In this document: positions 6,101-61,381 of the stretch, in pieces
Numbering within the stretch: the stretch's first letter is position 1
How the letters are laid out: each line of letters opens with the position of its first letter
NCBI GenBank assembly: GCA_951406725.2
Contig: OX597824.1
Coordinates: 56,792,001 to 56,856,000 of the forward strand
Length of the DNA: 64,000 nucleotides
From: Octopus vulgaris
Lineage: Eukaryota
Direction of reading: 5' to 3'
Notes under the pieces: model-generated
The model's input: the letters and a program-made list of their open reading frames with translations, nothing else
Database searches by the model: none
Told to the model about the DNA's origin: nothing
Program-made: the position numbers and the translations under genes

Positions 6101-9100
6101 TCAAAAGTGGGGTAGAGAGCCCCTTTCTCCTTTTATATTACCTTTTATATTACCGTTCACACTGGCCATTCTTGCGACATTTATCCACCTTTCAGTAAAC
6201 AGCACTTCCCTCTCTACTCTCATCCTCCTTTTCAAGTGAAACTTGAAAAAGTTGATGAGGCCTGGGCCAAAGAGGAAAGTGTCTGACTTTAGTCCTTTCA
6301 AACAGGTCCATCATACCACCTCTTTCGCTACAGCCACTAGGCAAAGGAAAACTGCCTTGCCCTCTCGGTTAAAGGAGGTCGGCGGGGCAATCTTCACTAT
6401 GGATTCAGCTGATAGCCAGATCCGTCCTATACGCGACAGTAGCTGTTCGACATAAACCCATAGTTCAGCAATCTCGGGCACTGGACGAGTGCGTGCAGAA
6501 CGGTTTCGTCGTCCTGAGCGCACCTCGGGCAGACCCGGCTGACGGCACTTCCGTGCCGGTATAGTTTATCTCGAACAGGCAAAGCCCCTCGGTAACACTG
6601 CCAGGCGAGGGACCTTTGGAAATTATCCATTGGCCCCGGCCCGGAAGTCCTTCCGAACAGACTGCTCAGCTCGTTATCGTCAACGCCTAGAGTTTCCCCG
6701 AGAACGTCGTCGCACTTTTCTTCCACTAACCCTCTAGAACGCTAGAGTGAACTACTACCGGTCGCATTGCCCGCTCGGTGGAGAGCGGAGAAAGCTTGGC
6801 GGCACTGGAGGTGCCAAGCACCTTTTCTCGGTCTGCGTTTGATCCAGGTCTGCAGCTCTGTCAAAGAGACGAACTGCGGAAAGTCGTGTCTGACAAAAGA
6901 CGACCACACCTGTTCACCGTCTAGGAAACGCTTGAGATGCCGTAGCCTGAGCGCATGTTTGCGCATCAATAACCACGGCATGCCAAGGCCTCCGTTCAGC
7001 GGTCGTTGACAGCAGATGGATCGCCTGAGTAGTGGTATCTGACCCTTCCACAAAAAGTCAAAGAGCAAGCGTACCAGCTTGGCTAACCAGCGGTCGGGAC
7101 ACGGGACGACGGTCAAGCGGTAATAGATGACGGATTGCAATGTACGCATTCGCCACCTCCGCTCGACCTTTCAGGGACAGCTTCCTCTCGGCCCATTTCT
7201 GGGTGAGATTGGCTACTTTGCTCGTCACTTCTTTCCAGTTTTTATCCACCTGGAGGTCCGGACCGAACCAGACCCCGAGCAGTTTAACGGGTCCGTCTGT
7301 CCAGCGCCCTACGACGCTGTTGGACGGTATGGACTTGCCTCTCCAGGTGCCCAGTTGCAAGCCCACGGACTTTTCCGCGTTAATCTTTGCACCTGTCACC
7401 GCTTCGTACACGTTTAGCGTCTCGCCAATCAGGTCAATGTGCCTGTGGCTCGACATCATCACGGTGACGTCGTCGGCATAGGCAGACACGCTGTTTCCAC
7501 CTCCTATATCGCGCGGGATACCCCTCAAAGCCTCCAACTTGTGCAGTAATGGAGCGAGAGAGGGCATCCTTGGCGAACCGAACGCGAGGTGTCAAACGGC
7601 TCCGAAAGGTGACCGTTCATCCGTATCACCGAGCAGATGTTGCTGTATAAAGCAGCGATCCACCCGCGGAAGACTGGACCGAAACCGGCTGCCTTGAGAA
7701 AAGCTGCCAGGTATCGATGGTAGACCCTATCGAAGGCTTTACTCTGATCTAAATTGATCAAAGCCCCACCCGCACCAGCGTCGTTACCCACCCCCTCTAT
7801 GACGTAGCGCCACTCCTCGACAAACAAAAGCAGGAATTCTCCCGTTTTGCTGCCAGTTGCAGTAGACGTTTGCCAAGAGGCCCGCAAACAAGTCTGGCAT
7901 TGAAGTGTAAAGCTCGTAGGGCAGACCATCCAAACTCGGCGATCTATCTCTCGTGCAGCTTTTCATCGCTTCCTCCATTTCCCAGGCAGATATCGGCCTT
8001 TCGCAGCACTCTGCTTCGCTGTCCGAGAGTTGCGGTAGGCTGTCCAGGTACACACTTAAGCCTGTACCGTTGTCCGTCACACCGTTCATCCCAAAGAGTT
8101 GAGCAAAGTGCCGCTGAAACACCGTACACCGCACGGAAACCTCGCGCCCGTTCCAGTCCACCAAAGACAGAATGGTCGCTTTGTTGCCACGCTTCGCCTC
8201 CGCCACGCGGGCCCATCGAGCGGCCTTAGTCCCTCCCCGCTTAGTGAACGCGCCTTAGCTCTGACAACGCAGCCTTCGTGTTTGGCGTCAAAGTGTTGGT
8301 CGAGGGCCAACCTAGCCGCCAACACATCAGTTGCGATGCCTGTCTCAAGAGCCTCGTCTAGTTTTCTAACTAAATTCCGCTCTGTTTTTCTACGTTCTAC
8401 AGCTAGAGCCTTACTAAACCTAATCGACTCTGCTCTAATTGCTCTCTTGAGGGCAAACTACCAGTTGTTGTTGATGATTGCCCCCGTGAGCGCCCGTTTA
8501 ACTAATAAACTAATCCGGTCTCTGTAGGCTTTGCACGCCGTTAACGACGCGTTCAGCTTCCAGTAGCCGGGTCCCTGTCTATGTAGCCTATCTAAGTCGA
8601 CCGTACAGATCCCGAATTTGTGGTCCGTGTAGTCGACTAGGTGGAAATGTGGACACCCTATGCTGTCCTTATCCGCTGGCCTACAGAAGACTCTATCAAA
8701 GTACGATCTAGATGACCCGATGCGTTTAGTCCAAGTCCACATTGGCACATTCGGGTTGTCTAGTCGAAACTGTCGGACAGCTGAAAGCGCCTGAGCAGGT
8801 TGGCGTGGCTCTTGCACCCCTTCTCCTATCAGATGCTCCCATGCCCACCCGATCGAAACGTTCGTCTAAGACAGCGTTCCAATCCCCAACTAGCACCAGA
8901 GTGCGTGACGTTCCTAAGAAAACTTCCAGACGCTTGAAATAATCGGATTGCCCTGCTCCTGTCGGAGCGTAGGCAGCCAGCAGTCTGAAAGCATCGCCAT
9001 CACTACCGTCTACGTCGAGGACCACCAACTTACCTTCTGGATCCAGGAAGACTGTCCTTATTTTCAAATCCAGGCCCTTCCGAAATAACACCGCAGTACC

Positions 9101-9291
9101 ACCACCGCCCGCTCCCCGCCGACACTGAGATAGAAAAATCTCGTATCCACCGAAAAGGGTCGCGAGAGCCTGGTTTCACTAATGGCTACTACATCCACGC
9201 TATGATACCTCAGGTCGTTTAACAGGTGGCCCTGTTTCCAAGGTGACCCGAGGGCTCTCACATTTAAGCAACCTATTCTGAGTTTAGCCAC
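6101..9291 (-). pseudogene. Tx1 ORF2 (APE endonuclease + reverse transcriptase), frameshifted with an internal deletion
   Basis: CLNVRAL..ISET, GDWNAVLD, GYWKLNASL, LDQSKAFDRV, VRQGCPLS, AYADDV, CPRC..ETVLHALVQC. Confidence 0.9.
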
Positions 9292-10106
9292 GTTTTAAAG
9301 GTTCAGAAGGAGAAAAAAGGCTCTACTTACTGTTGTTGTTTGGTGGGGTGGCTCCCTTGTGCTTTTGCACGGGTATTTCCACCAGGTTTTTATAGAGTTT
9401 TTTGGAGAAATTTCTCCCTAGCGACCCGACATCGTTAGGGAATTTCTCCTTGATTTCGTTATATTTTGATTCGTTTATTTTTATGGTAAGAATGTGTGCT
9501 GGTGGTGTGTTGTGCGTTGGATTAACGAAATCAGAATATTTAGTGTCTGTGTTTTGTTTCAGGTGTGTGACAAGTTGTTCATTTTTTGTGTTTATAGCTG
9601 TAACGGTGTCTGAGTGTTGGTGTGTGTGGCAGTAATGGTGGCGAAAGTGTTGTTTGTTGTTGTGAGTGCATGTTGTTGTTGATGTTGGGAAGCTCTATTT
9701 GTTCGTGCTTCCCCTGTGTGTTATGTGTGTCTTTTTGTTTTTTACGTCTTTTCTTTTTCGGTGACACTGTGTGCCACTCCCCTTTCTCGCTATCAGTGCT
9801 CGCACAATCCGAGCTGACCTGATCTGGAGAGGGGACATTTGTCGGGTCCGTTTCCACAGTTTGTCGAAAATTAGTAATATTTGTAGGAAACGGTGCTGTT
9901 GCTGCAGTTGTTGGTGTTGGTGACGGTGTTGATGCTTCTTTCTGGATGGTCCTTCTTGGTGTTGGTGTTGGTGTTGGTGTTGGTTTGGTGATGGCTGGAG
10001 GTGGTGTTGCTCTTCGTGGTGGTGGTGATGGTGTTGATGGTGTGGAAATTTTTGGTGTTTCAGGCTGTTGTTATTTCTGTTGTTGTTGTTGTTGCTACTG
10101 CTGCTG

Positions 10107-11180
10107 CTATTTCTTTTTTTCTGCCTCCATTCTTTGCTTGTAAATGGGGCAGTCTTTCTTCAGATGGTTTTCGCTGCTGCAGAGGTAGCATTTTGGCCTT
10201 CGCCCGTCTACAGCAACGTGCAATCTGGTGCCTTCCGGCAAATTTATGGAATCAGGTATGGAATTTGTATTTTCTTGCTGGATCTGTGCCAGCAGCTGTA
10301 CTCTCATACCTGACCAGTTCTTCTCTCGCAACCTGCGTAAATCCAGAATAGTGGCAGTGTCCTCTATGTCATAGAGGACAGCTGCCACCAGCCAAGATAT
10401 ACTCAGCTCGGGCGGCACCTGGTCAATTTTGATTTTTGTTACTCGCCGACCAAGGTATGTCGGTACGAGCAACAAACTTTCTGTTTGCAAGGGCGAAATG
10501 GCATGTTTCCTTGCATCTTCCCCCGTTGGGAATCGAACCTCCACGGTTCCAAACCGCTTCCCTTTGGTGACATAGCTCTTTTGACCCCAAATGGGCTTCA
10601 TAGCTATTTCCAGTTGTTGTGGTGTGGCATTACTTATTTTTCTGTATTTTCTTTCGAAAATCTTGTAGATTATTGTTTTTCTGTTTGTTTCTTGTATCAG
10701 TTCTTGTGGTGTTTTCAGGAACATGCTGTTACTTTGTTTCTTCAATAAACTTTTAGCAGTTTTGATTTCTTCCATCGTATCATGTATTTCCTCCGAGACC
10801 TGCTTGGCAGCGGAGGCGAAACCGTTACGATGTTGTTCAAATGTGTTCTTGCTGGTGGTGGTGTCATTGTTGATGCTGTTCATTGTTTTTCTTTCCTCCT
10901 CCTCTGGTACTGGAGCATTAGTAGAAGGAAGTGGAGGGAAATCTTCAATGACGTCAAAAGTGATGCCTTCTTTTGTATTGTCATTTTGAACGGTGCACGT
11001 GCCGACACGTTCTTTCGAAAATTCTTTGTTGCCTTTTAAGGCGCGAAATGGGCGGTTTGGAGCCGTTTTCGAAATGGTGTGTATTTGTGGAGGGTGTGGT
11101 GTTGGAAGAAGGGAACAGCTAACTGCTCGCTTCAAAGACATGTTTGTTAAAATAAATGTGTGTGTTTGCAAAATTGTCAA
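10107..11180 (-). pseudogene. Tx1 ORF1 (nucleic-acid-binding, CCHC knuckle); continues frameshifted to about 9327
   Basis: 357-aa ORF ending RPKCYLCSSENHLKKDCP, upstream of ORF2 on the same strand. Confidence 0.85.
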
Positions 11181-11361
11181 AGTTCAAAACGCAATTTTAC
11201 CCTTAATGGGGTAAAATTTTGCCTAACCAACTAGCTCTGCTAGAAGTTAGTTGCCTTGGCCACACAAATATCGAAATATATATATACTTTTAGACAAACT
11301 TCCAATATAATTGGTACAAAACTTATGGAGCCTCCTGAGACACGTCCGCTCTTTGGAGAAA

Positions 11362-15606: not shown

Positions 15607-16170
15607 GAATAAATGAAAGAATGGAGTCGAACGAAGATGTTAACAAAATTCCTTTTCTCTCGACATATGTTTCGAAGACAACATGGTTTCATTCCAAAGG
15701 AATAAAGGGTGCATTATGCAATCTTCTCATCAGGAAAGAAGGGGAGCCTCTCTCGACAACAAGGCAAACAAAAATTTCGATGACTGCCTACATGGTAAAC
15801 AAAACGAAAACACTCATTATCGTTTTGTTTACCATGTAGGCAGTCATCGAAATTTTTGTTTGTCTTGTCGAGAGAGGCTCCTCTTCTTTCCTGATGAGAA
15901 GATTGCATAATGCACCCTTTATTCCTTTGGAATGAAACCATGTTGTCTTCGAAACATATGTTGAGAGTAAAGGAATTTTGTTAACATCTTCGTTCGACTT
16001 CATTCTTTCATTTATTCATATACAACACACAAATTTCTGCACACAAACCCGGAGTTTCCACCCTTGGACAGGTCGCTTCAACCGTGTTTCTGACGTGAAT
16101 TTGCTACCCTGGTATCGGTTCAACGAATTTTCCATGCTGACGATAAACATAGGATAGTTCATTCACCTAT
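15602..16170. mobile_element. Fold-back HHR element (about 205-bp arms 15602-15807/15820-16022 plus 3' extension)
   Basis: Inverted repeat with 12-nt loop; single-arm family member at 42548-42892. Confidence 0.85.
15886..15967 (+). ncRNA. Type-I hammerhead ribozyme motif (mirror copy 15657-15738, -, has a GUC site)
   Basis: ctttc-CTGATGA-gaaga..tcttc-GAAA-c-atat-g-T(T/C)-gagag. Confidence 0.85.
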
Positions 16171-25016: not shown

Positions 25017-25313
25017 GAAATTCGGGGTGAGTACTTGATAATTATAAGCACCTGTGTATACCGTTTGGTGGTGTAGGTGGTGGAGTAAATTGATCGTCCT
25101 GAATTCTCGCCCCTCCATCTTCACGTCTATATATGTATTTATTTATTTACATTACTTCAACATCCAAATTTCCTCATTCAACATTGAGAGAAGAAAGAGA
25201 TGGACGCTTCAATTCTATGCTGCTGCCGCATTATGTCGTACGCGAATGAGAGGATTTGCATCCCCAACCAAGAATTTTTGATGTAACACATGTCCTTGTG
25301 GAAGCTGTTGTGC

Positions 25314-25391
25314 GCGGCTGAAGAAGGCCACAGACATACATTATGCATTGTTATAAATCTGTCTAATAAAGGCCCGAAACATATGTACCGC
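25314..25391 (+). ncRNA. Type-I hammerhead motif in a short non-coding element (about 25015-25412) between (TATC)n tracts
   Basis: gcgg-CTGAAGA-aggcc..ggccc-GAAA-c-atat-g-TA-ccgc. Confidence 0.85.
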
Positions 25392-25446
25392 TGAATCCTT
25401 CGCATCATGTTTTTATCTATCTATCTATCTATGGATTATATATATA

Positions 25447-25477
<31 letters not shown>

Positions 25478-25480
25478 TTT

Positions 25481-26287
25481 AATCAATATAAGGGTAGCAA
25501 AAAATTCAATAGAAATTTTTCCGCCACCAGCGGTCTAGTAAGAAAGAAAAAATAGTCAATAGACTATATAATGTACATTCAACAGTAATATTAAGGAATG
25601 GCCTTAATAGGCCATTCAACTCACTAAAACGAGCAGCTAAACTCAAACCGCTAAATAGTAGTAATTCAGAAATCAAAGGAAAATTAAAAACATTTATCCG
25701 AATCATCTTTGGACTATGCATAGTTTCGACGTACTTTTTGGCAAACTAGCCTAATTAAATTAAATTAAATTTAATCAAGTCAATTTACCACTGGCCCGTC
25801 TCATCGGCAAATAAGTCAGGAGGAATAAATATTCCACGAGGCAACAGCATCGATGCCTTGGGAATATATACTCTAAATTTTCAAAATCTACCCTCATCGC
25901 GCCAACTTATCAGCAGCAAATATAGACTGCTGATTTAATTTCAGAATTAGTCAAAAAAATCATTAATTAATCAATATAAGGGTAGCAAAAAATTCAATAG
26001 AAATTTTTCCGCCACCAGCGGTCTAGTGAGAAAGAAAAAAATAGTCAATAGGCTATATAATGTACATTCAACAGTAATATTAAGGAATGGCCTTAATAGG
26101 CCATTCAACTCACTAAAACGAGCAGCCCAAAATTATGTCGAAACTATGCATAGTCCAAAGATAATTCGGGTAAATGTTTTAAATTTTCCTTTGATTTCTG
26201 AATTACTACTATTTAGCGGTTTGAGTTTAGCTGCTCGTTTTAGTGAGTTGAATGGCCTATTAAGGCCATTCCTTAATATTACTGTTG
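25481..26287 (-). mobile_element. Non-autonomous HHR element: 488-bp unit + partial tandem copy + inverted copy
   Basis: 25481-25638 repeated at 25969-26126; 26127-26287 is the reverse complement of about 25580-25741. Confidence 0.85.
25708..25811 (-). ncRNA. Type-I hammerhead motif (U4C variant)
   Basis: tttg-CCGATGA-gacg..cgtc-GAAA-ctat-gc-atag-TC-caaa. Confidence 0.8.
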
Positions 26288-26318
26288 TATATACATACAT
26301 ACATATATATATACACTC

Positions 26319-26370
<52 letters not shown>

Positions 26371-26766: not shown

Positions 26767-26773
<7 letters not shown>
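26371..26773. mobile_element. HHR element with partial inversion (family of 39090-40039)
   Basis: About 27-bp inverted repeat near 26487-26512/26747-26773; (TA)n on both sides; homologous to the 39-40 kb palindrome. Confidence 0.8.
26584..26647 (+). ncRNA. Type-I hammerhead motif
   Basis: gttgca-CTGAAGA-gca..tgc-GAAA-tcac-ag-gtga-TA-tgtaac. Confidence 0.88.
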
Positions 26774-26833
<60 letters not shown>

Positions 26834-26874
26834 CATATATACATACACACACACACACATATTTTTTATTATTT

Positions 26875-27634
26875 TTATTATTTTTATTTTATCTAGTTTC
26901 AGCTCACGAGCTGTGGCCATGCTGGGGCACCGCCATTTGGTGTTGCTACATGATTTTACTTCACGAATGCTTTTTAGCAACTGCCATTTGGTGCATGAGA
27001 GAGCTCGATACAGCTGCCCTCATCTGCACCTCCTGATGTGAAGTTGGTTCATCTGGGACACCTGACAGGAAGAGATCCAGTCCTACTTTAGAGACATCTG
27101 CATCCACCACATGCTGGTCCCTCAGACTCTTCGGGAGGATATTGAAGAGCTGTGGGCCTCTGAAGCCCAGGCTATCACAGTATCTTGTCCTACATCTTGA
27201 TGGCAAATTTGGAGTCCTTGGCACCACGCAGTGGCGCCCAGTTCTGGAATTTGTGTAACTCGCGATGCCAAAGTTTGGGACAAGTCCTTCTAGGATCTTC
27301 CAGATGTATATTATGGCATATCTTTCTCGCCTACGCTCCAAGGAATAGAGTCTTAATCTCTTGAGTCTTTCCCAGTAGCTTATATGCTGCACAGAGGCTA
27401 TCTTCTTCATGTAGCTTCGTTGGATCGCCTCAAGTTCTGTGATCAACTTGACACTGGATGGTGACCATAGCTGAGAGCAATAGTCAAAGTGTCCTCCAGA
27501 GGACCATCATGGTTTCTTGGTCTCTTGTTCTAAAGGTTCTAAGAATCCACCCGGCCAGCCGCCTACATTTCATTGCCAATTTAGCAACATGTACATGAAA
27601 GGTTGCGTCATCACTCATGTAAATACCCAGGTCA
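26875..27634 (-). mobile_element. CR1/L2-group LINE 3' fragment
   Basis: YWERLKRLRLYSLERRRERY; 3' tail ggcggtgccccagcatggccacag. Confidence 0.9.
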
Positions 27635-28644: not shown

Positions 28645-29665
28645 GAGCCACGATCACAAGTTATGCAGATGATACAAAAGTTTCACAGGCAATACAGAAC
28701 CCTGAAGACACTAAGCACCTGTAATGTGAGCTGGACGAAATATACAAGTGGGCTGAAAAGAATAGCATGCAGTTCAATGCTGAAAAGTTTCAAGCTTTAT
28801 ACTATCAGCATGCAAAACTGAATGCAATACCCAATGAATACACTGGACCCGGAGGGATTGCAATCCCAGAGGCACAATCAGTGCGTGACCTGGGTATTCA
28901 CATGAGTGATGACGCGACCTTTCATGTACATGTTGCTAAACTGACAATGAAATGCAGACGGCTGGCTGGCTGGATTCTTAGAACCTTTAGAACAAGAGAA
29001 CAAGAAACCATGATGGTCCTCTGGAAGACACTTGTCCTAAGCAACTTTGACTATTGCTCTCAGCTATGGTCACCATCCAGTGTCAAGTTGATCACAGAGC
29101 TCGAGGCGATCCAACGTAGCTACACGAAGAAGATAGCTTCTATGCAGAATGTAAGCTACTGGGAAAGACTCAAGAAATTAAAACTATATTCCCTGGAGCG
29201 TAGGCGGGAAAGATATGCCATAATATACATCTGGAAGATCCTGGAGGGAAGTGTCCTGAACTTTGGCATCGAGAGTTACGCAAATGCCAGAACTGGGCGC
29301 CACTGCATGGTGCCTAGGACTCCAAACTTGCCATCTAGATGTAGGACAAGATTCTGTGATAGCCTGGGCTTCCGAGGCCCACAGCTCTTCAATATCCTCC
29401 CGAAGAACCTGAGAGACCTGCATGGGGTGGATGCAGATGTCTTTAAAATGAAGCTGGATCTCTTCCTGTCAGGTGTCCCAGATGAACCAACTTCACGGCA
29501 GGAGGGGCAGATGAGGGCAGCTGCATCGAACTCTCTCATGCACCAAATAGCAGTTGCTAGAAAGCCTTCATGAAGTGAAACCAAGTAGCAACACCAAATG
29601 GCGGTGCCCCAGCATGGCCACAGCTCATAAGCTGAAACTGGAAAAATCAAAATCAAAAAAATCAA
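28645..29665 (+). mobile_element. CR1/L2-group LINE 3' fragment (268-aa ORF 28767-29573)
   Basis: YADDTK, MQFNAEKF, DYCSQLWSP. Confidence 0.9.
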
Positions 29666-29670
29666 TCAAA

Positions 29671-29788
<118 letters not shown>

Positions 29789-29869
29789 TATATGTATATA
29801 TATATATATATATACATATATTTACATATATATTTACATATATATATACATATATATTTACATATATTT

Positions 29870-31613
29870 ACCACCCCGTTGGAACGAACCAGTGGACTTC
29901 TTTGCCGCCTCACCTATAACCAGCGAGGCGATTACAAAAGAATGTATTGACATTAGCGAAAAAGATGTCCTACTCGCCATAGATGAAGTGGACACAAACT
30001 CAGCTGCTGGTCCAGACGGTTTCCCAGCCATCCTCCTCAAAGCGTGTCAGCATGCCCTGGCAAAACCCCTCAAGATTCTCTTCCAGAGCTTTCTTGCGAA
30101 TGGCAAACTGCCAAGCAAGCTGAAAGAGGGAATAATATGCCCAATACATAAAGGGGGAAGTAGAGCAGATGCCAAAAACTATAGGCCTATCTCTCTGACT
30201 TCACACATCAGCAAAGTAATGGAACGGATAGTCAGAAAGAAACTAATCGCATTCCTTGAGGAAAATAACTTGCAGAGTAATACCCAGCATGGTCTTCGAC
30301 CAGGTAGGAGCATTATGACTGGGTGTTGAGGCAGTTACTCAACAAATCAAATGTGGACGTAATCTACCTTGATTTTGCAAAAGCTTTTGACAAGGTGGAT
30401 TATGGTATGATATGCCACAAACTACGTGACCTCGGCATAGCTGGAAAACTTGGAGTGTGGTTGCATGACTTCCTGAAAGATAGGAGTCAGGCAGTAGTGG
30501 TTAATGGAGCCACCTCTATGAACACACAGATAATGAGCGGTGTTCCACAGGGCACTGTCTTGGGACCACTGCGTTTTATAGTGGCCCTCTCAGATATGCC
30601 CTCAAATGCCCGGATAGCCACTCTGGCCAGCTATGCAGACGATACGAAAGTCTCGCAGAAAATACAGAACCCCAGCGATGTTGCACACCTGCAGCAGGAG
30701 TTGGACTCAATCTACAGATGGTCTGAGGATAATAATATGCAGTTTAATGCTGAAAAATTCCAGGCCCTGCGCTACCAGCATCCAAAACTGAATATTAAAC
30801 TTAGAGGATACACCGGTCCACGGGGAATTTCAATCCCAGAGTCTAAGTCTGTGAGGGACCTGGGTATCGACATGAGTGATGATACCTCTTTCCAAGTGCA
30901 CATTACCAGGATGGAAACAAAGTGCAGACGACTGGCTGGGTGGATCCTAAGAACATTCAGAACCAGAGATAAGGAAACCATGATGGTCCTCTGGCGGACA
31001 TTCGTCCTCAGTCGCCTGGATTACTGCTCACAGCTATGGTCACCCACCAGTGTAAAATTAACAGCGGACCTTGAAGCAATCCAGAGAAGATTCACAAAGA
31101 ATATCGTCTCTTTGCAACAGCTCAGCTACTGGGAAAGGTTGAAACAGCTAAGACTCTACTCCCTGGAGAGAAGACGGGAGAGGTATGCAGTAATATATGT
31201 CTGGAAGATCCTGGAAGGAATTGTGCCAAATTTTGGCATTGTAAGCTACACCAATGCTAGAATGGGACGACACTGCATAGTGCCAAAGATCCCAGCAATG
31301 CCATCACGCTTCAGGACCAGCTTCTGCAACAGCCTGGGTTTCAAGGGCCCACAGCTTTTTAATATTCTCCCAAAGAGTCTGAGAAACTTGCACAAAGTAG
31401 ATGTAGCGGTTTTTAAATCAAAGCTGGACATCTTCCTGTAAAAAGTCCCAGATCAACCTACCTCACGGCAAGAGGTGCAAAAGAGAGTAGCTGTATCAAA
31501 CTCCATTCTTCACCAAGTGCCACATATTAGACGAGGTTCGTCGTAATAACAGTGTAGCACAAAACGGCGGTGCATCAGCATGGCCGCAGCTCTGAGCTGA
31601 AACTAGAATAAAA
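29870..31613 (+). mobile_element. CR1/L2-group LINE, 5'-truncated, RT largely intact (ORFs 29892-30329 and 30323-31441)
   Basis: [43 protein letters not shown]. Confidence 0.92.
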
Positions 31614-34396: not shown

Positions 34397-37772
<3,376 letters not shown>

Positions 37773-54958: not shown

Positions 54959-57685
54959 CTACTCCATGTCGTAGTCCACCATCCAACCGGGAGGGCGCCT
55001 TGCGCGTCGAGATCTTCTCAAGCTAGGTACCTCGTTCTCCCCCTCTCCACAATCGTCCTCCGTCGAAGCAACAATCCTGCGAAGGTCTAAGACGTGTCGC
55101 GGCATTCCATCCACGGAGACGTTGTTTCTGGAATTGACCGCCGTCACCGTTCCTCTGCTCCATTGAGACGTACAGCGCGCCTTCGGTGGCTTAACCCAGA
55201 CTTCCTCCCCTATTTTCACGCAAGAGGGTCCCTTCTATTCCTCGTAGCCCTCCGGCGCTTTACTCGGGTACCTCCATTCATATTTAAATACAGCTCTCTG
55301 CGGCACAGATTCTTCAGCTTGTCCGGATCAGGGAGGCAAGTTGTACCAAAAAACTGCTTCAAACGGCAAAATGTGCCCTCTTTCCGCTATGGCCTTGAGT
55401 GTCCGATGGTGCCTCTCTACGATCCCGTTACCGCTCGGCCTATACGCTGCTCTGAACAAGCGACGCACCTTCCACCGGTCAAGCATATCCCTCAATGCTT
55501 CCGAACGAAACACCGCCCCGTTGTCCATTAGCAGTTCTTTCACGGGACCTCTCTCTAAAAATATCCCGTTCAAGATCTGCGCAATCTCGTCAGCAATGCT
55601 CGTTTTCAACTCCCTCCAAATGGCCAGCCGACCCGGCTCGGCCCGCAGTCGACCATGGAGAGATACATTCTCTGACGGGGAAAAGCTAGCCTTTTCCAGT
55701 TGTGCTCCACCGAAAGATTTCCCTGTTCATGCCCACACGGAGCAGGGTCAACGGACTGACACCTGTCGCAGCTCCCGACCACTTTCCGGATGCTTCTCCT
55801 GGTGACGTCAGTATCAATTTTCTTCGCCAGATACAGGGTCCTGTCCACACCCAAGTGATGCATAGCATGCAGTCTCTTCAGTTTAGAGTCATCCAACCGA
55901 CACGCTGCAGCTATCCCTTTCCGGGCCTCCTCCGGTTCCTCCAACCACGCCCTTTTCACCCTGGTCAGTGCGTCCGCCCTGTTTTTCTCCGAAGGCTCGA
56001 AAACCACGTTCAGCTTCAGTCCAAACTCGGCAATCAATTCTCCTAGAACTCCTAGACGGTGCTTCGCCAACATCTCCGCGGCACCTTTCGTCCGAACTCT
56101 CCTTTCACCGGTGATCACCGATCCTACCCAGCCAAGCAAAGTGGCCGAATCCGTCCGGATTTCAATTGCCCCCATTTCAGGGCCAAGTTCACCCCTTTCA
56201 GCACCGCGTCTAATTCGGCGACATTGATGTGGTTGAAGTCATCTGCTTTCCGAAGCCAGGCCGCGTCCTCCACCGCAGCGACTTCGATCGCCAACACAAT
56301 CTCTATCGCTATACTGCTAGCATCACACCAGACGGTCCCGCATTCCGTCTTGGGCACGTACCAGTTCCCTCTGACCGGGTCTTCCGCTCTCGTTCTCTCT
56401 AGGATTTCCTGCATCATCGCCACCGTCCCTTCTCCCACCTTGTCGCCCCAACTCTCCCCCTCCGCTCGTCTCTTGGTGTAACTACACGCCGTGCGCAGCC
56501 ATCCAGCGATCGGGTAGTGACCGACCAACTTCCCACACACCGAGAACAGCTCTCTCCTGCTGACGCCGGAACTCAGCTCTGGGATTTCATTCCCTCTCAG
56601 GAACACCAACTCACCCGATCTATCTCTTCGCAGCTTCAGCCCCAGTGCGGCTCCCCCTTCCATCGTCTCCGGTGATTTCGCAATCAGTCCGAACTTCTCC
56701 AGATGTCTAACTACCTCGTTGGCTGGCACTACAGTTTCGTCCACCAAAATGTCGTCAATGTAGGAGCTGGTGGCCTTTCTAATCTTGCCGTCTTTCCCTA
56801 GGACGGACCTAAGCACTGCCGCCATGATCTTCGGAGCGGAATTCAGCCCGAAACCCAGCCTGGTTAGACAGTACGTCCGGCCCTTGTACCGCACCAGCTG
56901 ATATCGCCACAGTTTGTCGCTCACATGGAGCTGCAAGTATGCCGATTTCAATTCGACAATCGCCGCTGCCTTGGTCGACTGTCTCCACGCACATAACATC
57001 TCGCCACAAACGTCCGTCGCCTCACCTCCCGTGTGACACGATATATGCTGGTTTAGCTCCCTGAAGTCCAGCACCGGTCTGACTTTTCCCTCCGTAGGCT
57101 GCACCACCACCATCAGGGGTAGCACTCCGCCCGCTACCTCCTCCTTCCAAGGGACAAGGACCCCTTCCTCGATCCACCTCTCCACCTCGTCTTCAAACTC
57201 GACCCTGGCGTGGCCTTTCAGGGTATGCTGGTAGCAGCTCACTCTGTTTTTCGTCCTTTCATCGCCCCTCTATCGTCCACCGCCTGAAAATCTTTGTCCT
57301 CGATGGTGTAAGCGGCGCAGTCCCTCGCGGGACTCTGCTCTCCCTGGCGATCCTGACTCGCCGTGCACGTCGCCCCCACGCTTCCGAACGTGACCTCATC
57401 TCCCACAATACTGACGCCACCGAGGCGGTTGATGGCGTCCATCCCCATCACCACATCAACCCCATCTATTACGCGTTCAGCCACAATTACCTGCAGCCTT
57501 AGCGTTGCGGCGCGCACCACTATCTCTACCTTGCTGCTGCCTTTGCAACGGATTTCGCTGCCGTCGACCGCCCGGACGCTACTTGCCCCTTTCCATTTCT
57601 TCGACACCCTTGAATTCACAAGGGTAGTCGTGCAGCCCGTATCCACGAGGGCCTTGAACGTCTTCCCCTTCGGCCTCCACGTCAA
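54959..57685 (-). pseudogene. pol (protease, RT, RNase H, integrase), frameshifted
   Basis: ALVDTGC; RPVLDFRELN, LGFGLNSAP, YIDDILV; WCDAS, AELDA, TDS, NRADALTR; H..HLG..C..C, DNG, GNGIVERHHRTLK. Confidence 0.92.
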
Positions 57686-57776
57686 TTAATGGCAGCGTCT
57701 CCAAAAGCGCCTCTACTCGTTTGCGGGGAAAGTTCGAGAGGAAGCAACTTCCCCGCGGTCGTTTCCCTGGTCGCAA

Positions 57777-58457
57777 TCACGGGCGATGTGCCTTGTCTGC
57801 CTGCATCGATAGCAAACGGGCCCCGGTTGCGTACACTCCCTCGCCATGTGCGACCCCTGACATCTTAAACACCGACCTGAGAATGGCCGCGGTAGGCTTC
57901 TGCACGTCTTTCTCTGGCCGTCGTCCGTCTTTACACACCGCCATCGCTATCGCCTTCCGCCCAGAGTGTCGCGTCAACACGCGGTCTTGAGTCACAAGTT
58001 CGCTCAGCGTCATCTTTTTACTCCTGGCCAATTGTTGTAGGTGAATCCCTACATCGTCGGGGAACCCATTTACGAACGCCAGTCGTGCTGCTCTCTCCAA
58101 CCCTTCTCCTGTAAACCCAGCCAGCGTCGCTAACCTTCGAACTTCTGCTGCATATTCGTCCACCTGTCCTCCCATCCATCTGATCGTACCCAGCTTAGCA
58201 AAAGCTGTGTACTCACACTCTGTGTAGGTATCCCTCAGACGTTGCTCGATCTTTTCCTCGTTCAGACGTTCTTCCTCGTCCATCTCAAGATATAGCGTCA
58301 ACGCGCTCCCTTCCAAATACAGCGCCATAAGACTTGCCACATCGCTTATACCTTGCAGTCTTGCCACCAGCCTGATTTTACGCATCCAGGCCACTACATC
58401 GCCTTCTCCATTAAAGGGTCTGATGATGTCGCTGGCGATCCTGATTTTCGCTGCCAT
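57777..58457 (-). pseudogene. gag-like ORF
   Basis: 226-aa ORF starting 36 nt after the 5' LTR; PFNGEGDVVAW..LYLEGSAL; CCHC knuckle frameshifted near 57780-57830. Confidence 0.8.
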
Positions 58458-58480
58458 CGTGGTGACGTCTTATACGGAAC

Positions 58481-58492
58481 GCCGAAATAGCT
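58481..58492 (-). promoter_or_regulatory. Putative primer-binding site AGCTATTTCGGC
   Basis: Abuts the 5' LTR; complementary to the tRNA-Phe 5' end GCCGAAATAGCT (recalled sequence). Confidence 0.55.
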
Positions 58493-58768
58493 TGTGGTGT
58501 ATGCGAGAGATTCGAAATAAAGGCACCTGTCTTCTCTTCGCTCAGATGGAGGCCCTTCAGCGGTAATGGATCCTTCAACACAGCCCGACCCGAACGCTAG
58601 AAATAGCAGCTGCTTCTCCCAACCTTAACAACGTGCTGACTCGTCTTACTCGCTCGGCGACCACGATCGAAAGGCCGAATGCTACCCTACTTGCGCGCGT
58701 GTCACTGCTGCTCCTTCTGGCCAGCCCCAAGTTCCGGTCAGCTCCCCAGCTGCTGACGTCATACCACA
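58493..58768 (-). repeat. 5' LTR
   Basis: Direct repeat of 54652-54927. Confidence 0.95.
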
Positions 58769-61381
58769 GTCACAGCTTTGCGATGTTCCTCTACCCTTAT
58801 TTTGAGGGGGTGACATGTTTCGCCTTTGTATAACCTACCACAGCTGCATGGGATGGAGTACACGCAGTTTTTGGTCATATTCTCTTCTATGAACCAACCA
58901 AGCAAACATTGACATGAAGTTGTTATTGTATCATCACCACCACCACCACCACCACCACCACCACCACCACCACCGCCGCCGTCGGAGATATTTGCGAAGT
59001 GTTGTATTACCCTTGAATACTATCCTGATGTCATATGGGTCGCATATCTTTTCAAAGAGGCCTTTCACATAGAGTAGACAGACTGTGGACAGCTTATTGG
59101 TTTCATCCTCTCTTTTCTTCATAATTGGAGTGGATAGTGTGTTTTGGGGGTAGTTGTTGCTTAATAGATTGTTACTGAGCTTGATCATTTCTTCGTGGTG
59201 GGTATCGCGATAGCTACTTATATTCTTTGCTCGATGTTTTAGGCACTGAGCAATCCCTCTCTTTACACTGTATGGATGGTGGGTATTGAAGTTGAGGTAT
59301 GGTCCAGTGAAGGTTGGCTTACGGTATACGGATGTCCTGAATCCATACTCGGTGCGTGTTATTAATACGCCCAGGAATGCTAGCTGATTGTCTTTTTCCT
59401 TTTCCACTGTGAACTGTATGGATGGCTTTATTGAGTTCACATGATCTAACAGCACTTGGACATATTCCTGGTGGGGCCAGAGTATAAAGGTGTCATCAAC
59501 ATATCGCAGCCACAGTGTTGGTTTTAGTGGTATTGATCCTAAAGCCAAATTCTCAAAGTATTCCATGTATATATTAACTATTATCGGTGATAATGGTGAA
59601 CCCATTACTAAACCCTCTTCTTGTCGACATATATCAGTGTCCATACTGAAGTAGGTAGTTTCTACACAGGTCAACATTTCCATTAAGTTTCTTATTGTTA
59701 TACTAGTGCGTTCTTTTAGATGGGTGTCTGTCACTAGCTTTTCTTGAATCACCGATAGTACTTCACCAGTTGAGACTTCAGAGAACAGACTTATCACATC
59801 TAGACTTACCATCTAGTTGGATTTAATGAGGGCATCATTGATCAATTCTGAGAAGTGAGTGGAATTCTTCCCGTACGATGTTGACTTTCCTGCTAATGAA
59901 CTGAATATATCCACAAGGAAGCGGCTCAGTGGATGACATGCTGAATCTCTACAGCTCACTATAGGTCTTAATGGAATACCATTCTTGTGAATCTTAGGAA
60001 GACCGTACATATGTGGTAGTTTACTGCAGTGTTGAGTTAGTTGCCTGTATTTCATTGGTGCAAAGTGATCCTTGTTCTTAATCAAGATCTGTGACAACTT
60101 CCTCTCTGTTTTCAAAGAAGGGTCTTTCTTTACTTTGCTGTAGCTACCATCACTTGTAAGACTTGCCAATTTTTCCGAGTAGTCAGACTTGTCCATTACC
60201 ACTGTAGCATTTCCCTTGACCGCTGGAAGTATTATTATAGAACTGAAGTACCAGTCGAGCCCTGGGGTCGATGCAATCAACTTATCCCCTACCTCGAAAT
60301 TGCTGGCTTTGTGCCAAAATCTGAACCCAATATTTCAGCGTCCTATACAACACCGCAATTTTACGTAGTTGCCTTTTTTGTACCGCAGTCATTTCACCTC
60401 CCACAATCTCTCCCATACAGATCCTCTTCTAGCATATTCTCTATTTTCACTACCACTCCTTATCAAATATTTTCCTCTTCCTCTTCCTCCCCCTCCCCCT
60501 CTCCCTCCTATATATATATATACATACACAGTAACCACAACAACTAACATCCCACCCATCATCCTTAACTGTACTAGACTCCCGTATCCACCCCTTACCA
60601 TCTTCCTGACACCCTGAATATCTGAAGATAGCCAGATTCCCGTAACAGTGTGTAGTACTTTAGTGAAACTGACTGGCAGCATTTGATAAATGGACGAACA
60701 ACGAGTTGTCTTTCATGAAATAACGACGACGACGACAACAATGACGGCCGTGACGACTACGATGATGACAATGATGACTACGAAAGCGATGACGACGAGG
60801 ACGACGACGACGATGATGATGTTCGGTCTGCGGTAGGTCTGAACTCTTCCGCATTCCTTCTCTTGAACCAACCAAGCAAACATTGACATGAAGTTGTTAT
60901 TGTATCACCACCACCACCACCACCACTACCACCACCACCACCACCACCACCACCGCCGCCGCCGTCGTCGTCGTCGGCGGCGGCGTTATTATTGTTGTTG
61001 TTTTATATTTTAAACAGTTTCTGTGCAAAACTCTCTTGCACCACCGGGTATTCTAAAAGTAGTGCAGCATTGTTTTCTGGAAATGTTGGCATGTGTTTAT
61101 ATATTACAAAAAGTTTTGTTTGGGTGGAATTTGCTGCTGTTGTTGTTGGTGGTCGTGATATTTTAGTGTGGAAGATGTATGAGTTGTGTTATTTGGCTGG
61201 ATGGGGTCTGTATGTCGTATGTATTGTGTAGTTAGGATTGTGCGTTTTACTGTTGATCGGGTCCGCTGTGAGTTGATGATATTAATGTGTGATAACTGAA
61301 TAGAATATAAGAGGTGTAAGTTGTGGCTATCGGGTAATCGATTATGTAGGAGTATATATTATCGGATATTACCATTACGAA

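What the first reader, a model, noticed from the sequence alone, without database searches (positions are those of the whole stretch)
25481..26287. 488-nt ORF-less monomer in partial tandem plus inversion: retrozyme-like unit
Seen: direct-repeat period of 488 bp (25481 versus 25969), one well-paired HHR with CCGATGA core and GUC site, then an inverted 160-bp copy. Inference: a partial tandem is what reverse transcription around a circular or multimeric RNA of about 490 nt would leave. This is the best candidate here for a stand-alone non-autonomous family.
Basis: partly seen in the sequence, partly recalled or inferred. Interest (0 to 1): 0.7.

Follow-up and report, generated by a model that had tools for sequence, protein, structure and literature searches.

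The report
Retrozyme copies stop at ribozyme cut
This is one decayed copy of a widely scattered, protein-less jumping repeat of a known kind (a retrozyme) that carries a predicted self-cutting RNA motif; its copies often end just short of the predicted cut site, which suggests that a Penelope-type enzyme likely pastes it in, often from the cut, linear RNA rather than only from a circle.

Summary
Observation confirmed: a 488-bp unit, a 157-bp second unit and a 163-bp inverted arm between (TA)n tracts, with one minus-strand type I hammerhead. It belongs to a dispersed ORF-less family of hundreds of loci. The tandem junction recurs (78 exact hits), none of 87 loci runs in sense into a PLE ORF, and all four hammerhead helices covary. 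CCGAUGA marks a whole subfamily; sister subfamilies keep CUGA, and this copy has two rare stem I changes. Insertions have Penelope anatomy: in 44 of 50 inverted loci one arm starts at a fixed site A and the other about 100 nt in, like the tail of a young Neptune-type PLE in the same genome. Arm ends pile up in the ~50 nt 3′ of the predicted cut (scan p<1/2000); both arms often stop there together, and three end exactly at it. The Neptune shows no such pile-up. Best reading: a non-LTR retrozyme mobilised by a PLE, often from cleaved linear RNA. A circle is untested and not required; the partner PLE is unproven. The scan noted similar families earlier on other DNA of this genome.

The parts
25481..25968 (-). 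Full ORF-less 488-nt monomer (RNA sense = minus strand), first unit of arm A; positions q1-q488 count from 25481
   Evidence: fold z -7.2
25969..26126 (-). Partial second unit (q1-157), head-to-tail continuation of arm A, 98% identical
26125..26287 (+). Inverted arm B (about q102-262), starting at the family's second start site next to the right (TA)n; 2-nt overlap with arm A; holds only the 3' half of the hammerhead
25706..25813 (-). Type I hammerhead: stem I 25813-25808 / 25711-25706, core CCGAUGA 25807-25801 (U4C), helix II 25800-25797 / 25731-25728, GAAA 25727-25724, palindromic helix III 25724-25713
   Evidence: 96.3% of cells paired; 7 of 21 pairs changed on both sides
25711..25712 (-). 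Predicted self-cleavage site (GUC|CAAAG, q232/q231); arm ends across the family pile up on its 3' side
   Evidence: cleavage itself not tested
25732..25796 (-). 65-nt AU-rich hairpin extension of helix II, kept as a hairpin with different length and sequence in sister subfamilies
25479..25490 (-). Start site A: precise RNA-sense end (...AUAUUGAUU, then AAU shared with the TA target)
25481..25581 (-). [quoted passage not shown]
   Evidence: Neptune analogue of about 35-38 nt
25961..25976 (-). Predicted short hairpin across the tandem junction, with start site A at its tip
   Evidence: consensus fold pairs columns 2-8 with 502-508; no two-sided change, so prediction only
25437..25478 (.). Left target microsatellite (TA/TACA)n
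26288..26370 (.). Right target microsatellite (TA/TACA)n

Best explanation
The locus is one decayed insertion of an ORF-less 488-nt hammerhead-bearing repeat family (a non-LTR retrozyme) that is likely copied into (TA)n microsatellites by the reverse transcriptase/GIY-YIG endonuclease of a Penelope-like element, probably of the Neptune type. Shown: fixed start site A, second start site B about 100 nt further in, TA targets, head-to-head arms from one template lineage, a conserved hammerhead fold, and arm ends clustered 3' of the predicted cut. Inferred: the enzyme cuts both strands of a TA tract, and each DNA end primes on the same RNA at a UA-rich internal site (A precise, B ragged). The two cDNAs run towards the RNA 5' end and are joined head-to-head after trimming. 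About a third of arms run off at an RNA 5' end made by hammerhead cleavage. The rest pass the site, as arm A of this locus does once, because the template was an uncut multimer or a re-ligated circle. The weakened U4C core is probably still active enough to set such ends.
For: Family and junction recurrence. No sense link to a PLE ORF in 87 loci. A+B arms in 44 of 50 inverted loci (p 3e-7 allowing for selection on an A end). The 20 nt beyond the mapped start were TA-rich in 60 of 74 A arms and 33 of 57 B arms. The same short+long end pairing occurs in 9 of 9 inverted Neptune loci where both ends were found (10 fetched), and the Neptune long end shares ACCCTTATA with site A. Opposite arms are closer to each other than to the median other locus in 35 of 36 loci (3.4% vs 10.5%). 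Arm ends fall in q185-236 for 43 of 131 A/B arms, hazard ratio 3.25 overall and 4.2 in the set not chosen for length; the scan-corrected null reached this in 0 of 2000 runs. Both arms stop there in 9 of 42 A/B junctions (Fisher p 0.005). Three arms end at exactly the first base of the 3' cleavage product. Neptune: 0 of 11 arms that reach its own hammerhead stop within 50 nt of the cut, against 35 of 78 passes for the retrozyme (p 0.003). Hammerhead covariation in all four helices. The pile-up is alike in CCGAUGA and CUGA subfamilies (HR 4.1 vs 4.5).
Against: No cleavage, expression, strand or circle was shown. No parent or partner PLE with homology was found: the Neptune examined has no blastn match to the unit, the shared 9-mer has E 1.6 in an unconstrained comparison, and a short-helix-II relative pattern found nothing. 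76 of 131 arms pass the cut site. In the length-selected set 1 the pile-up is weak (HR 1.6, p 0.16). Most clustered ends lie 5-40 nt short of the cut, which needs trimming and also fits RT stalling at the 3' foot of stem I; the bin q409-432, just 3' of another strong hairpin, is also raised (6.3 per 1000 nt, against 7.8-8.9 at the cut and mostly 1-3.7 elsewhere). The two arms of a locus are not independent counts. No CCGAUGA locus with two complete hammerheads was found, so the source of a unit-length RNA for this subfamily is unexplained. In vitro, the anole PLE uses mainly unprocessed RNA (PMC11167929).
Confidence: 0.66

Rival explanations
1. Same element and PLE enzyme, but the template is always a covalently closed 488-nt circle. 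Both DNA ends copy round it, and the clustered stops are RT pauses at the folded hammerhead or its ligation junction.
For: 76 of 131 arms cross the cut and 42 of 86 loci cross the 488/1 junction; one arm runs 1587 nt. Overlapping A and B arms share template lineage. The unit is highly self-paired (z -7.2; circular MFE -133.6). Coral, mussel and axolotl retrozymes accumulate as circles (PMC7229834). A circle would regenerate tandems that linear copying would erode.
Against: Both arms of one locus tend to stop at the same template position (p 0.005), and three stop exactly at the cut, as expected for a shared free 5' end. A circle needs two cuts, and two complete hammerheads were seen in only 1 of 86 loci and in none of the CCGAUGA subfamily.
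Confidence: 0.22
2. The unit is the pseudo-LTR or a 5'-truncated 3' end of an autonomous PLE whose full-length copies were missed.
For: Insertion anatomy is the same as a PLE's (PMC8557442). Searches scored only the best 40 of 785-2492 candidates.
Against: Arms pass from q488 straight into q1 in 42 of 86 loci, in subfamilies 81-97% identical; a pLTR would continue into ORF sequence there. RT/EN hits lie in 5 of 87 loci. The two closest were read and are separate neighbours; the other three lie 650-1550 nt away.
Confidence: 0.05
3. A non-autonomous PLE derivative whose hammerhead is a dead relic after the U4C change; uncut read-through RNA is the only template and the stops are purely structural.
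For: U4C considerably lowers activity in vitro (PMC3088659, one passage). Hammerhead mutants do not impair anole PLE insertion in vitro (PMC11167929). Only 1 of 9 Xenopus retrozyme dimers cleaved (bioRxiv 10.64898/2026.07.22.740005).
Against: Two-sided changes occur inside the CCGAUGA subfamily itself (helix III U-A to A-U; stem I U-A to C-G). The same passage says U4C keeps enough activity for viroid infectivity. Two of the three exact-cut ends are in loci assigned to the CCGAUGA subfamily by best reference (L084, L090).
Confidence: 0.07

Closest known systems
Metazoan non-LTR retrozymes (Cervera and de la Pena 2020, PMC7229834; Li, Clavereau and Pollet 2026, bioRxiv 10.64898/2026.07.22.740005)
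   Same: ORF-less, AT-rich, highly self-paired monomer with one type I hammerhead; head-to-tail organisation; co-exists with hammerhead-bearing PLEs; PLE mobilisation proposed.
   Different: 488 nt is above the 170-400 nt of the 2020 paper but inside the 51-972 bp range of the 2026 preprint. It is dispersed as 0.1-1.6-unit inverted insertions rather than long arrays. It has a U4C core subfamily and a 65-nt helix II extension. Circles and cleavage are untested. In the parts I read, neither paper describes fixed starts, a tail, TA targeting or stops at the cut.
Neptune and other EN+ Penelope-like elements (Craig et al. 2021, PMC8557442); young Neptune-type family in this genome (L061-L063)
   Same: Partial tandems, inverted 5'-truncated arm, optional tail at one end, microsatellite targets, hammerhead upstream of the ends; ACCCTTATA near the long end.
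   Different: No ORF; tail about 100 nt against 30-40; full three-helix hammerhead against a minimal one; no alignable homology to the Neptune examined; arms stop at the cut, whereas the Neptune's do not.
Poseidon PLE of Anolis carolinensis (Frangieh et al. 2024, PMC11167929)
   Same: Internal initiation at two sites downstream of the hammerhead, whose offset is the tail; both DNA strands cut and extended; AT-rich targets.
   Different: There, both strands used the same starts in vitro, at an AC-rich loop not homologous to the target, and uncut RNA was the main template. Here the two strands use different UA-rich starts, and many cDNAs end at the cut.
Non-autonomous Chlamys PLEs such as MRC1 (PMC8557442, passage)
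   Same: ORF-less PLE passengers that make pLTRs and head-to-tail insertions.
   Different: Those generally share 3' sequence with an autonomous family, and most Chlamys lack canonical hammerheads; no such partner was found here.

Membership tests
Metazoan non-LTR retrozyme | Type I hammerhead in each monomer | tested here: met
   Core, three helices and GUC/GUA site; 96.3% of cells paired, 7 of 21 pairs with two-sided change, slid controls 32-41% paired. Core is the U4C variant in this subfamily.
Metazoan non-LTR retrozyme | No protein-coding capacity; no LTR-type structure | tested here: met
   Longest ATG frame 71 aa; no Pfam hit for the 123-aa stop-to-stop frame; ends are TA-flanked arms. 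PBS/PPT not searched.
Metazoan non-LTR retrozyme | Head-to-tail repeats of a few hundred bp, multi-copy | tested here: met
   78 exact junctions, longest run 3; 42 of 86 loci cross the junction.
Metazoan non-LTR retrozyme | [quoted passage not shown] 2026) | tested here: inconclusive
   Not met at this locus; met in 1 of 86 loci (L064, a CUGAUGA subfamily); none seen for the CCGAUGA subfamily (exact 14-mer only).
Metazoan non-LTR retrozyme | Highly self-paired monomer RNA | tested here: met
   MFE -140.6, z -7.2, 0 of 100 shuffles as low; 8 of 142 consensus pairs with two-sided change.
Metazoan non-LTR retrozyme | Self-cleavage and accumulation as circular RNA | not testable with these tools
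   Only contig assemblies of guessed-RNA runs were available.
EN+ Penelope-like element (autonomous) | ORF with RT and GIY-YIG endonuclease | tested here: not met
   No ORF; no sense link to RT/EN in 87 loci.
PLE-mobilised non-autonomous element | Partial tandem plus inverted 5'-truncated arm | tested here: met
   50 of 86 loci are inverted two-arm insertions.
PLE-mobilised non-autonomous element | Optional tail at one end (two RT start sites) | tested here: met
   A+B in 44 of 50 inverted loci; Neptune analogue 9 of 9.
PLE-mobilised non-autonomous element | Microsatellite / AT-rich target | tested here: met
PLE-mobilised non-autonomous element | Sequence homology to the pLTR of an autonomous partner | tested here: inconclusive
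   No blastn match to the 33 Neptune loci L031-L063; only a 9-mer at the A end. One Neptune family of many was examined in detail (11930 candidates, 150 scored).

The most novel reading that the evidence does not exclude
The family is a genome-scale record of a hammerhead cutting its retroelement RNA in the germline. Both nicked DNA strands copy one RNA from two fixed starts to a ribozyme-made 5' end, even with a U4C core. Animal retrozymes would then be pasted largely from cleaved linear or multimeric RNA rather than from the circles of the current model, while their autonomous Neptune helper uses uncut RNA.
Probability: 0.4. Interest if true: 0.68.

Novelty: new member of a known kind. Interest (0 to 1): 0.47.

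Why it matters
Two points are proposed but not shown in the papers read here: that PLEs mobilise animal retrozymes, and what the hammerhead does in that cycle. This family gives countable genomic footprints for both: a PLE tail, two-strand priming, TA targeting, and cDNA ends at the predicted cut. A young, intact Neptune-type ORF in the same genome makes the pairing testable in the in vitro TPRT system set up for the anole PLE. The kind of element is known and this locus is an ordinary decayed copy.

Tried and rejected
Rfam scans of the window and of the element gave no hammerhead hit, only sub-threshold hairpin matches; the long helix II is the likely reason. Expression: no RNA holder listed on record. 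Contigs of 4 of the 24 listed runs, guessed to be RNA, cover the unit in pieces; they cannot show strand, ends or circles, no silent control stretch was laid, and they are not used as evidence. Search for a parent PLE: a pattern for a short-helix-II version of the hammerhead found 0; DNA searches with the A end and the q350-488 part returned only family members among the 40 scored; the Neptune family has no alignable homology. RNA-editing footprint: only 2 of 13 locus-private variants shared between segments are A>G; not supported. Weaker cleavage by U4C: no difference in stop rate between subfamilies (19 of 38 vs 16 of 40 passes, p 0.49). Long head-to-tail arrays: longest run 3 junctions among 78 exact hits. 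'Unique local duplication' rejected. Rows dropped before counts: L115 (23-nt match only) and one 67% old fragment in L080. L102's third piece and L120's third arm were kept as arms; L120 is the one locus that fails the arm-sharing test, because its longest pair involves a separate insertion 3 kb away. A sequence look-up of earlier scan notes found nothing, so identity with the earlier noted families is not established. Literature: 6 searches; none listed a cephalopod retrozyme study or stops at the cut; most subscription journals are not covered. Supplements of PMC7229834 (Fig. S9 model) and of the bioRxiv preprint were not seen and may bear on novelty.

Full report
Observation. The window holds a 488-bp unit (25481-25968), a 98% identical partial second unit (25969-26126) and a 95% identical inverted arm (26125-26287), between (TA)n/(TACA)n tracts. 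The minus strand has one type I hammerhead: CCGAUGA at 25807-25801, helix II GACG/CGUC with a 65-nt hairpin extension, GAAA, a palindromic helix III and a GUC site. The unit has no ORF above 71 aa from ATG and folds far better than shuffles (z -7.2). Positions q1-q488 below count from 25481 on the + strand, so reverse transcription of the minus-strand RNA runs towards higher q. The predicted cut lies between q232 and q231.

Family. The genome has 2.8 Gb in 227 contigs. Earlier scan notes call it cephalopod; I did not test that. The unit drew 2492 first-look candidates, of which 40 were scored. Exact counts are 242 terminal 21-mers, 78 tandem junctions and 80 CCGAUGA 14-mers against 3 in the reversed control. 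I mapped 87 loci: 30 best matches (set 1, biased to length) and 57 taken from the first 100 listed of the 242 terminal-pattern hits (set 2). One was dropped as too short. The closest long copies differ by 1.6-7.1% from their majority, and subfamilies are 81-97% identical to this copy. The 488/1 junction is crossed in 42 of 86 loci, but only L064 has two or more complete hammerheads in one arm. RT/EN hits lie in 5 of 87 loci. The two closest were read and are independent neighbours; the other three lie 650-1550 nt from the element.

Hammerhead. On 36 of the 73 extracted motifs, chosen to span subfamilies, 96.3% of cells pair and 7 of 21 pairs change on both sides, in all four helices; slid controls pair 32-41%. 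Related sequences inflate the shuffle control, so I rest on the individual two-sided changes. The 73 cores were 47 CCGATGA, 9 CTGATGA, 9 CTGACGA, 1 CCGATAA and 7 unparsed. U4C is thus a subfamily trait, not decay of this copy. PMC3088659 (one passage seen) says U4C lowers activity in vitro but supports viroid infectivity. This copy does carry two rare stem I changes, and its hammerhead fold is 6.5 kcal/mol above its MFE, against 0.6-2.7 for three relatives. It is probably inactive or weak (inference).

Insertion anatomy. 50 of 86 loci are two arms joined head-to-head. In 44 of them one arm starts at q1 (site A, precise) and the other at about q96-110 (site B, ragged), each next to (TA)n (p 3e-7 after allowing for selection on an A end). 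This is the PLE signature of a tail at one end only (PMC8557442, passages seen), which PMC11167929 (parts 1-2 of 4 read) traces to two internal RT start sites. A young Neptune-type family in this genome has a 411-aa ORF1 and a 717-aa RT/GIY-YIG ORF with a CxxxxCxxC linker (the clade label rests on my recall of that linker plus PMC8557442). It shows the same pairing in 9 of 9 inverted loci with both ends found, with a tail of about 35-38 nt, into (TA)n. Its long end shares ACCCTTATA with site A, a lead only (E 1.6), and it has no other homology to the unit. Opposite arms of one locus are closer than the median other locus in 35 of 36 cases, so both come from one template or one source.

Where arms stop. 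43 of 131 A/B arms end in q185-236. The stop hazard is 7.8-8.9 per 1000 nt in q193-240 and mostly 1-3.7 elsewhere. I chose the window after seeing the data; a scan over all 52-nt windows in set 2 peaks at q189-240 (35 ends, 11.7 expected), and 0 of 2000 null scans reach it. The excess holds at directly abutting junctions (30 of 86 ends), so it is not an alignment drop-out. Both arms stop there in 9 of 42 A/B junctions (odds ratio 8.6, p 0.005), at the same template position rather than after equal lengths. Three arms begin exactly with the first base of the 3' cleavage product and one a base later. The CCGAUGA and CUGA subfamilies behave alike. As a control, 0 of 11 Neptune arms that reach their own minimal hammerhead (40 loci examined, chosen for long ORFs) stop within 50 nt of its cut. 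Against this: 76 of 131 arms pass the site, set 1 shows only HR 1.6 (p 0.16), and a second raised bin (q409-432) lies below another hairpin, so structural stalling may contribute.

Mechanism. Shown: TA targets, two starts, shared template lineage, conserved hammerhead fold, clustered stops. Inferred: a PLE protein, probably of the Neptune type, cuts both strands, and both ends prime internally on one RNA. The cDNAs run to the RNA 5' end, which in about a third of arms is the hammerhead cut, and are joined after trimming. Arms that pass the cut, such as arm A here (645 nt), need an uncut multimer or a circle, and the DNA cannot tell these apart. Unexplained: no CCGAUGA locus with two complete hammerheads was found in this assembly, so the source RNA of this subfamily is unknown.

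Comparison. It works like, and on the testable features is, a metazoan non-LTR retrozyme (PMC7229834: parts 2-3 of 6 and passages read; bioRxiv 10.64898/2026.07.22.740005: parts 1-3 of 5 read). Both papers propose PLE mobilisation, from co-occurrence or pLTR phylogeny. Circularity and cleavage, which define the class experimentally, could not be tested. It is not an autonomous PLE. PMC6962438 (passages) only lists hammerhead counts in a squid genome. Earlier scan notes on other DNA of this genome describe 359-495-nt families with the same two-start anatomy. I had noted the second start before reading them and tested it here. The stop pile-up was not in the notes shown for this genome; one note on another genome reports clustering at the ribozyme's other edge.

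Verdict. Real feature, new member of a known kind. Interest is moderate and comes from the family-level evidence on how the hammerhead and a PLE enzyme act, not from this locus.

Noticed in passing
window 25313-25392 (+): A second, unrelated hammerhead-like motif about 90 nt left of the element (CUGAAGA core, GGCC/GGCC helix II with long loop, GAAAC-AUAU-GUA), probably the end of another PLE family.
   Followed up: no
window 15891 (+), 15733 (-), 42830 (-), 27660 (+): Further hammerhead-like cores; the pair at 15733/15891 is inverted, as in PLE insertions.
   Followed up: no
L061-L063 (G000 C9:10669000-10686000; C9:55713000-55722999): Very young Neptune-type PLE in 4.4-kb tandems (99.3-99.6% identical), with a separate 411-aa ORF1 without Pfam match, an intact 717-aa RT/GIY-YIG ORF and a minimal hammerhead-like motif with a UUGAAAA core (would be a C3U/G8A pair; numbering recalled). 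Many near-identical copies.
   Followed up: partly
L121-L140: In all 9 complete inverted Neptune loci the short end lies on the lower-coordinate arm and the tailed end on the higher one; the tenth has the tailed end on the lower arm. Orientation should be arbitrary; unexplained.
   Followed up: no
window 25481-25496 and 25578-25597: Start sites A and B resemble each other in RNA sense (CCUUAUAUUGAUUAAU and CCUUAAUAUU..GUUGAAU), a possible recognition motif.
   Followed up: partly
L064, L069, L077, L109: Sister subfamily with CUGAUGA core, GUA cut site and a rebuilt helix II extension; L064 is the only locus with three complete hammerheads in tandem, a candidate source locus.
   Followed up: partly
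window 35654-36853 (-) and 58934-60334 (-): Broken PLE RT fragments, Neptune-like (79-83% identical to the young family) and Penelope/Poseidon-like by recalled motifs.
   Followed up: partly
window 26770-27490 / 29044-29764 and 28725-31441: Several broken LINE RT fragments in inverted arrangement; also an LTR-type gag-pol remnant at about 55300-58500 and another non-LTR element at about 6700-11200 (labels by eye).
   Followed up: no
joints 25728-25865 and 25784-25897: Contigs from public runs show related variants that skip or replace 92-136 nt around the 5' half of the hammerhead: further subfamilies.
   Followed up: no
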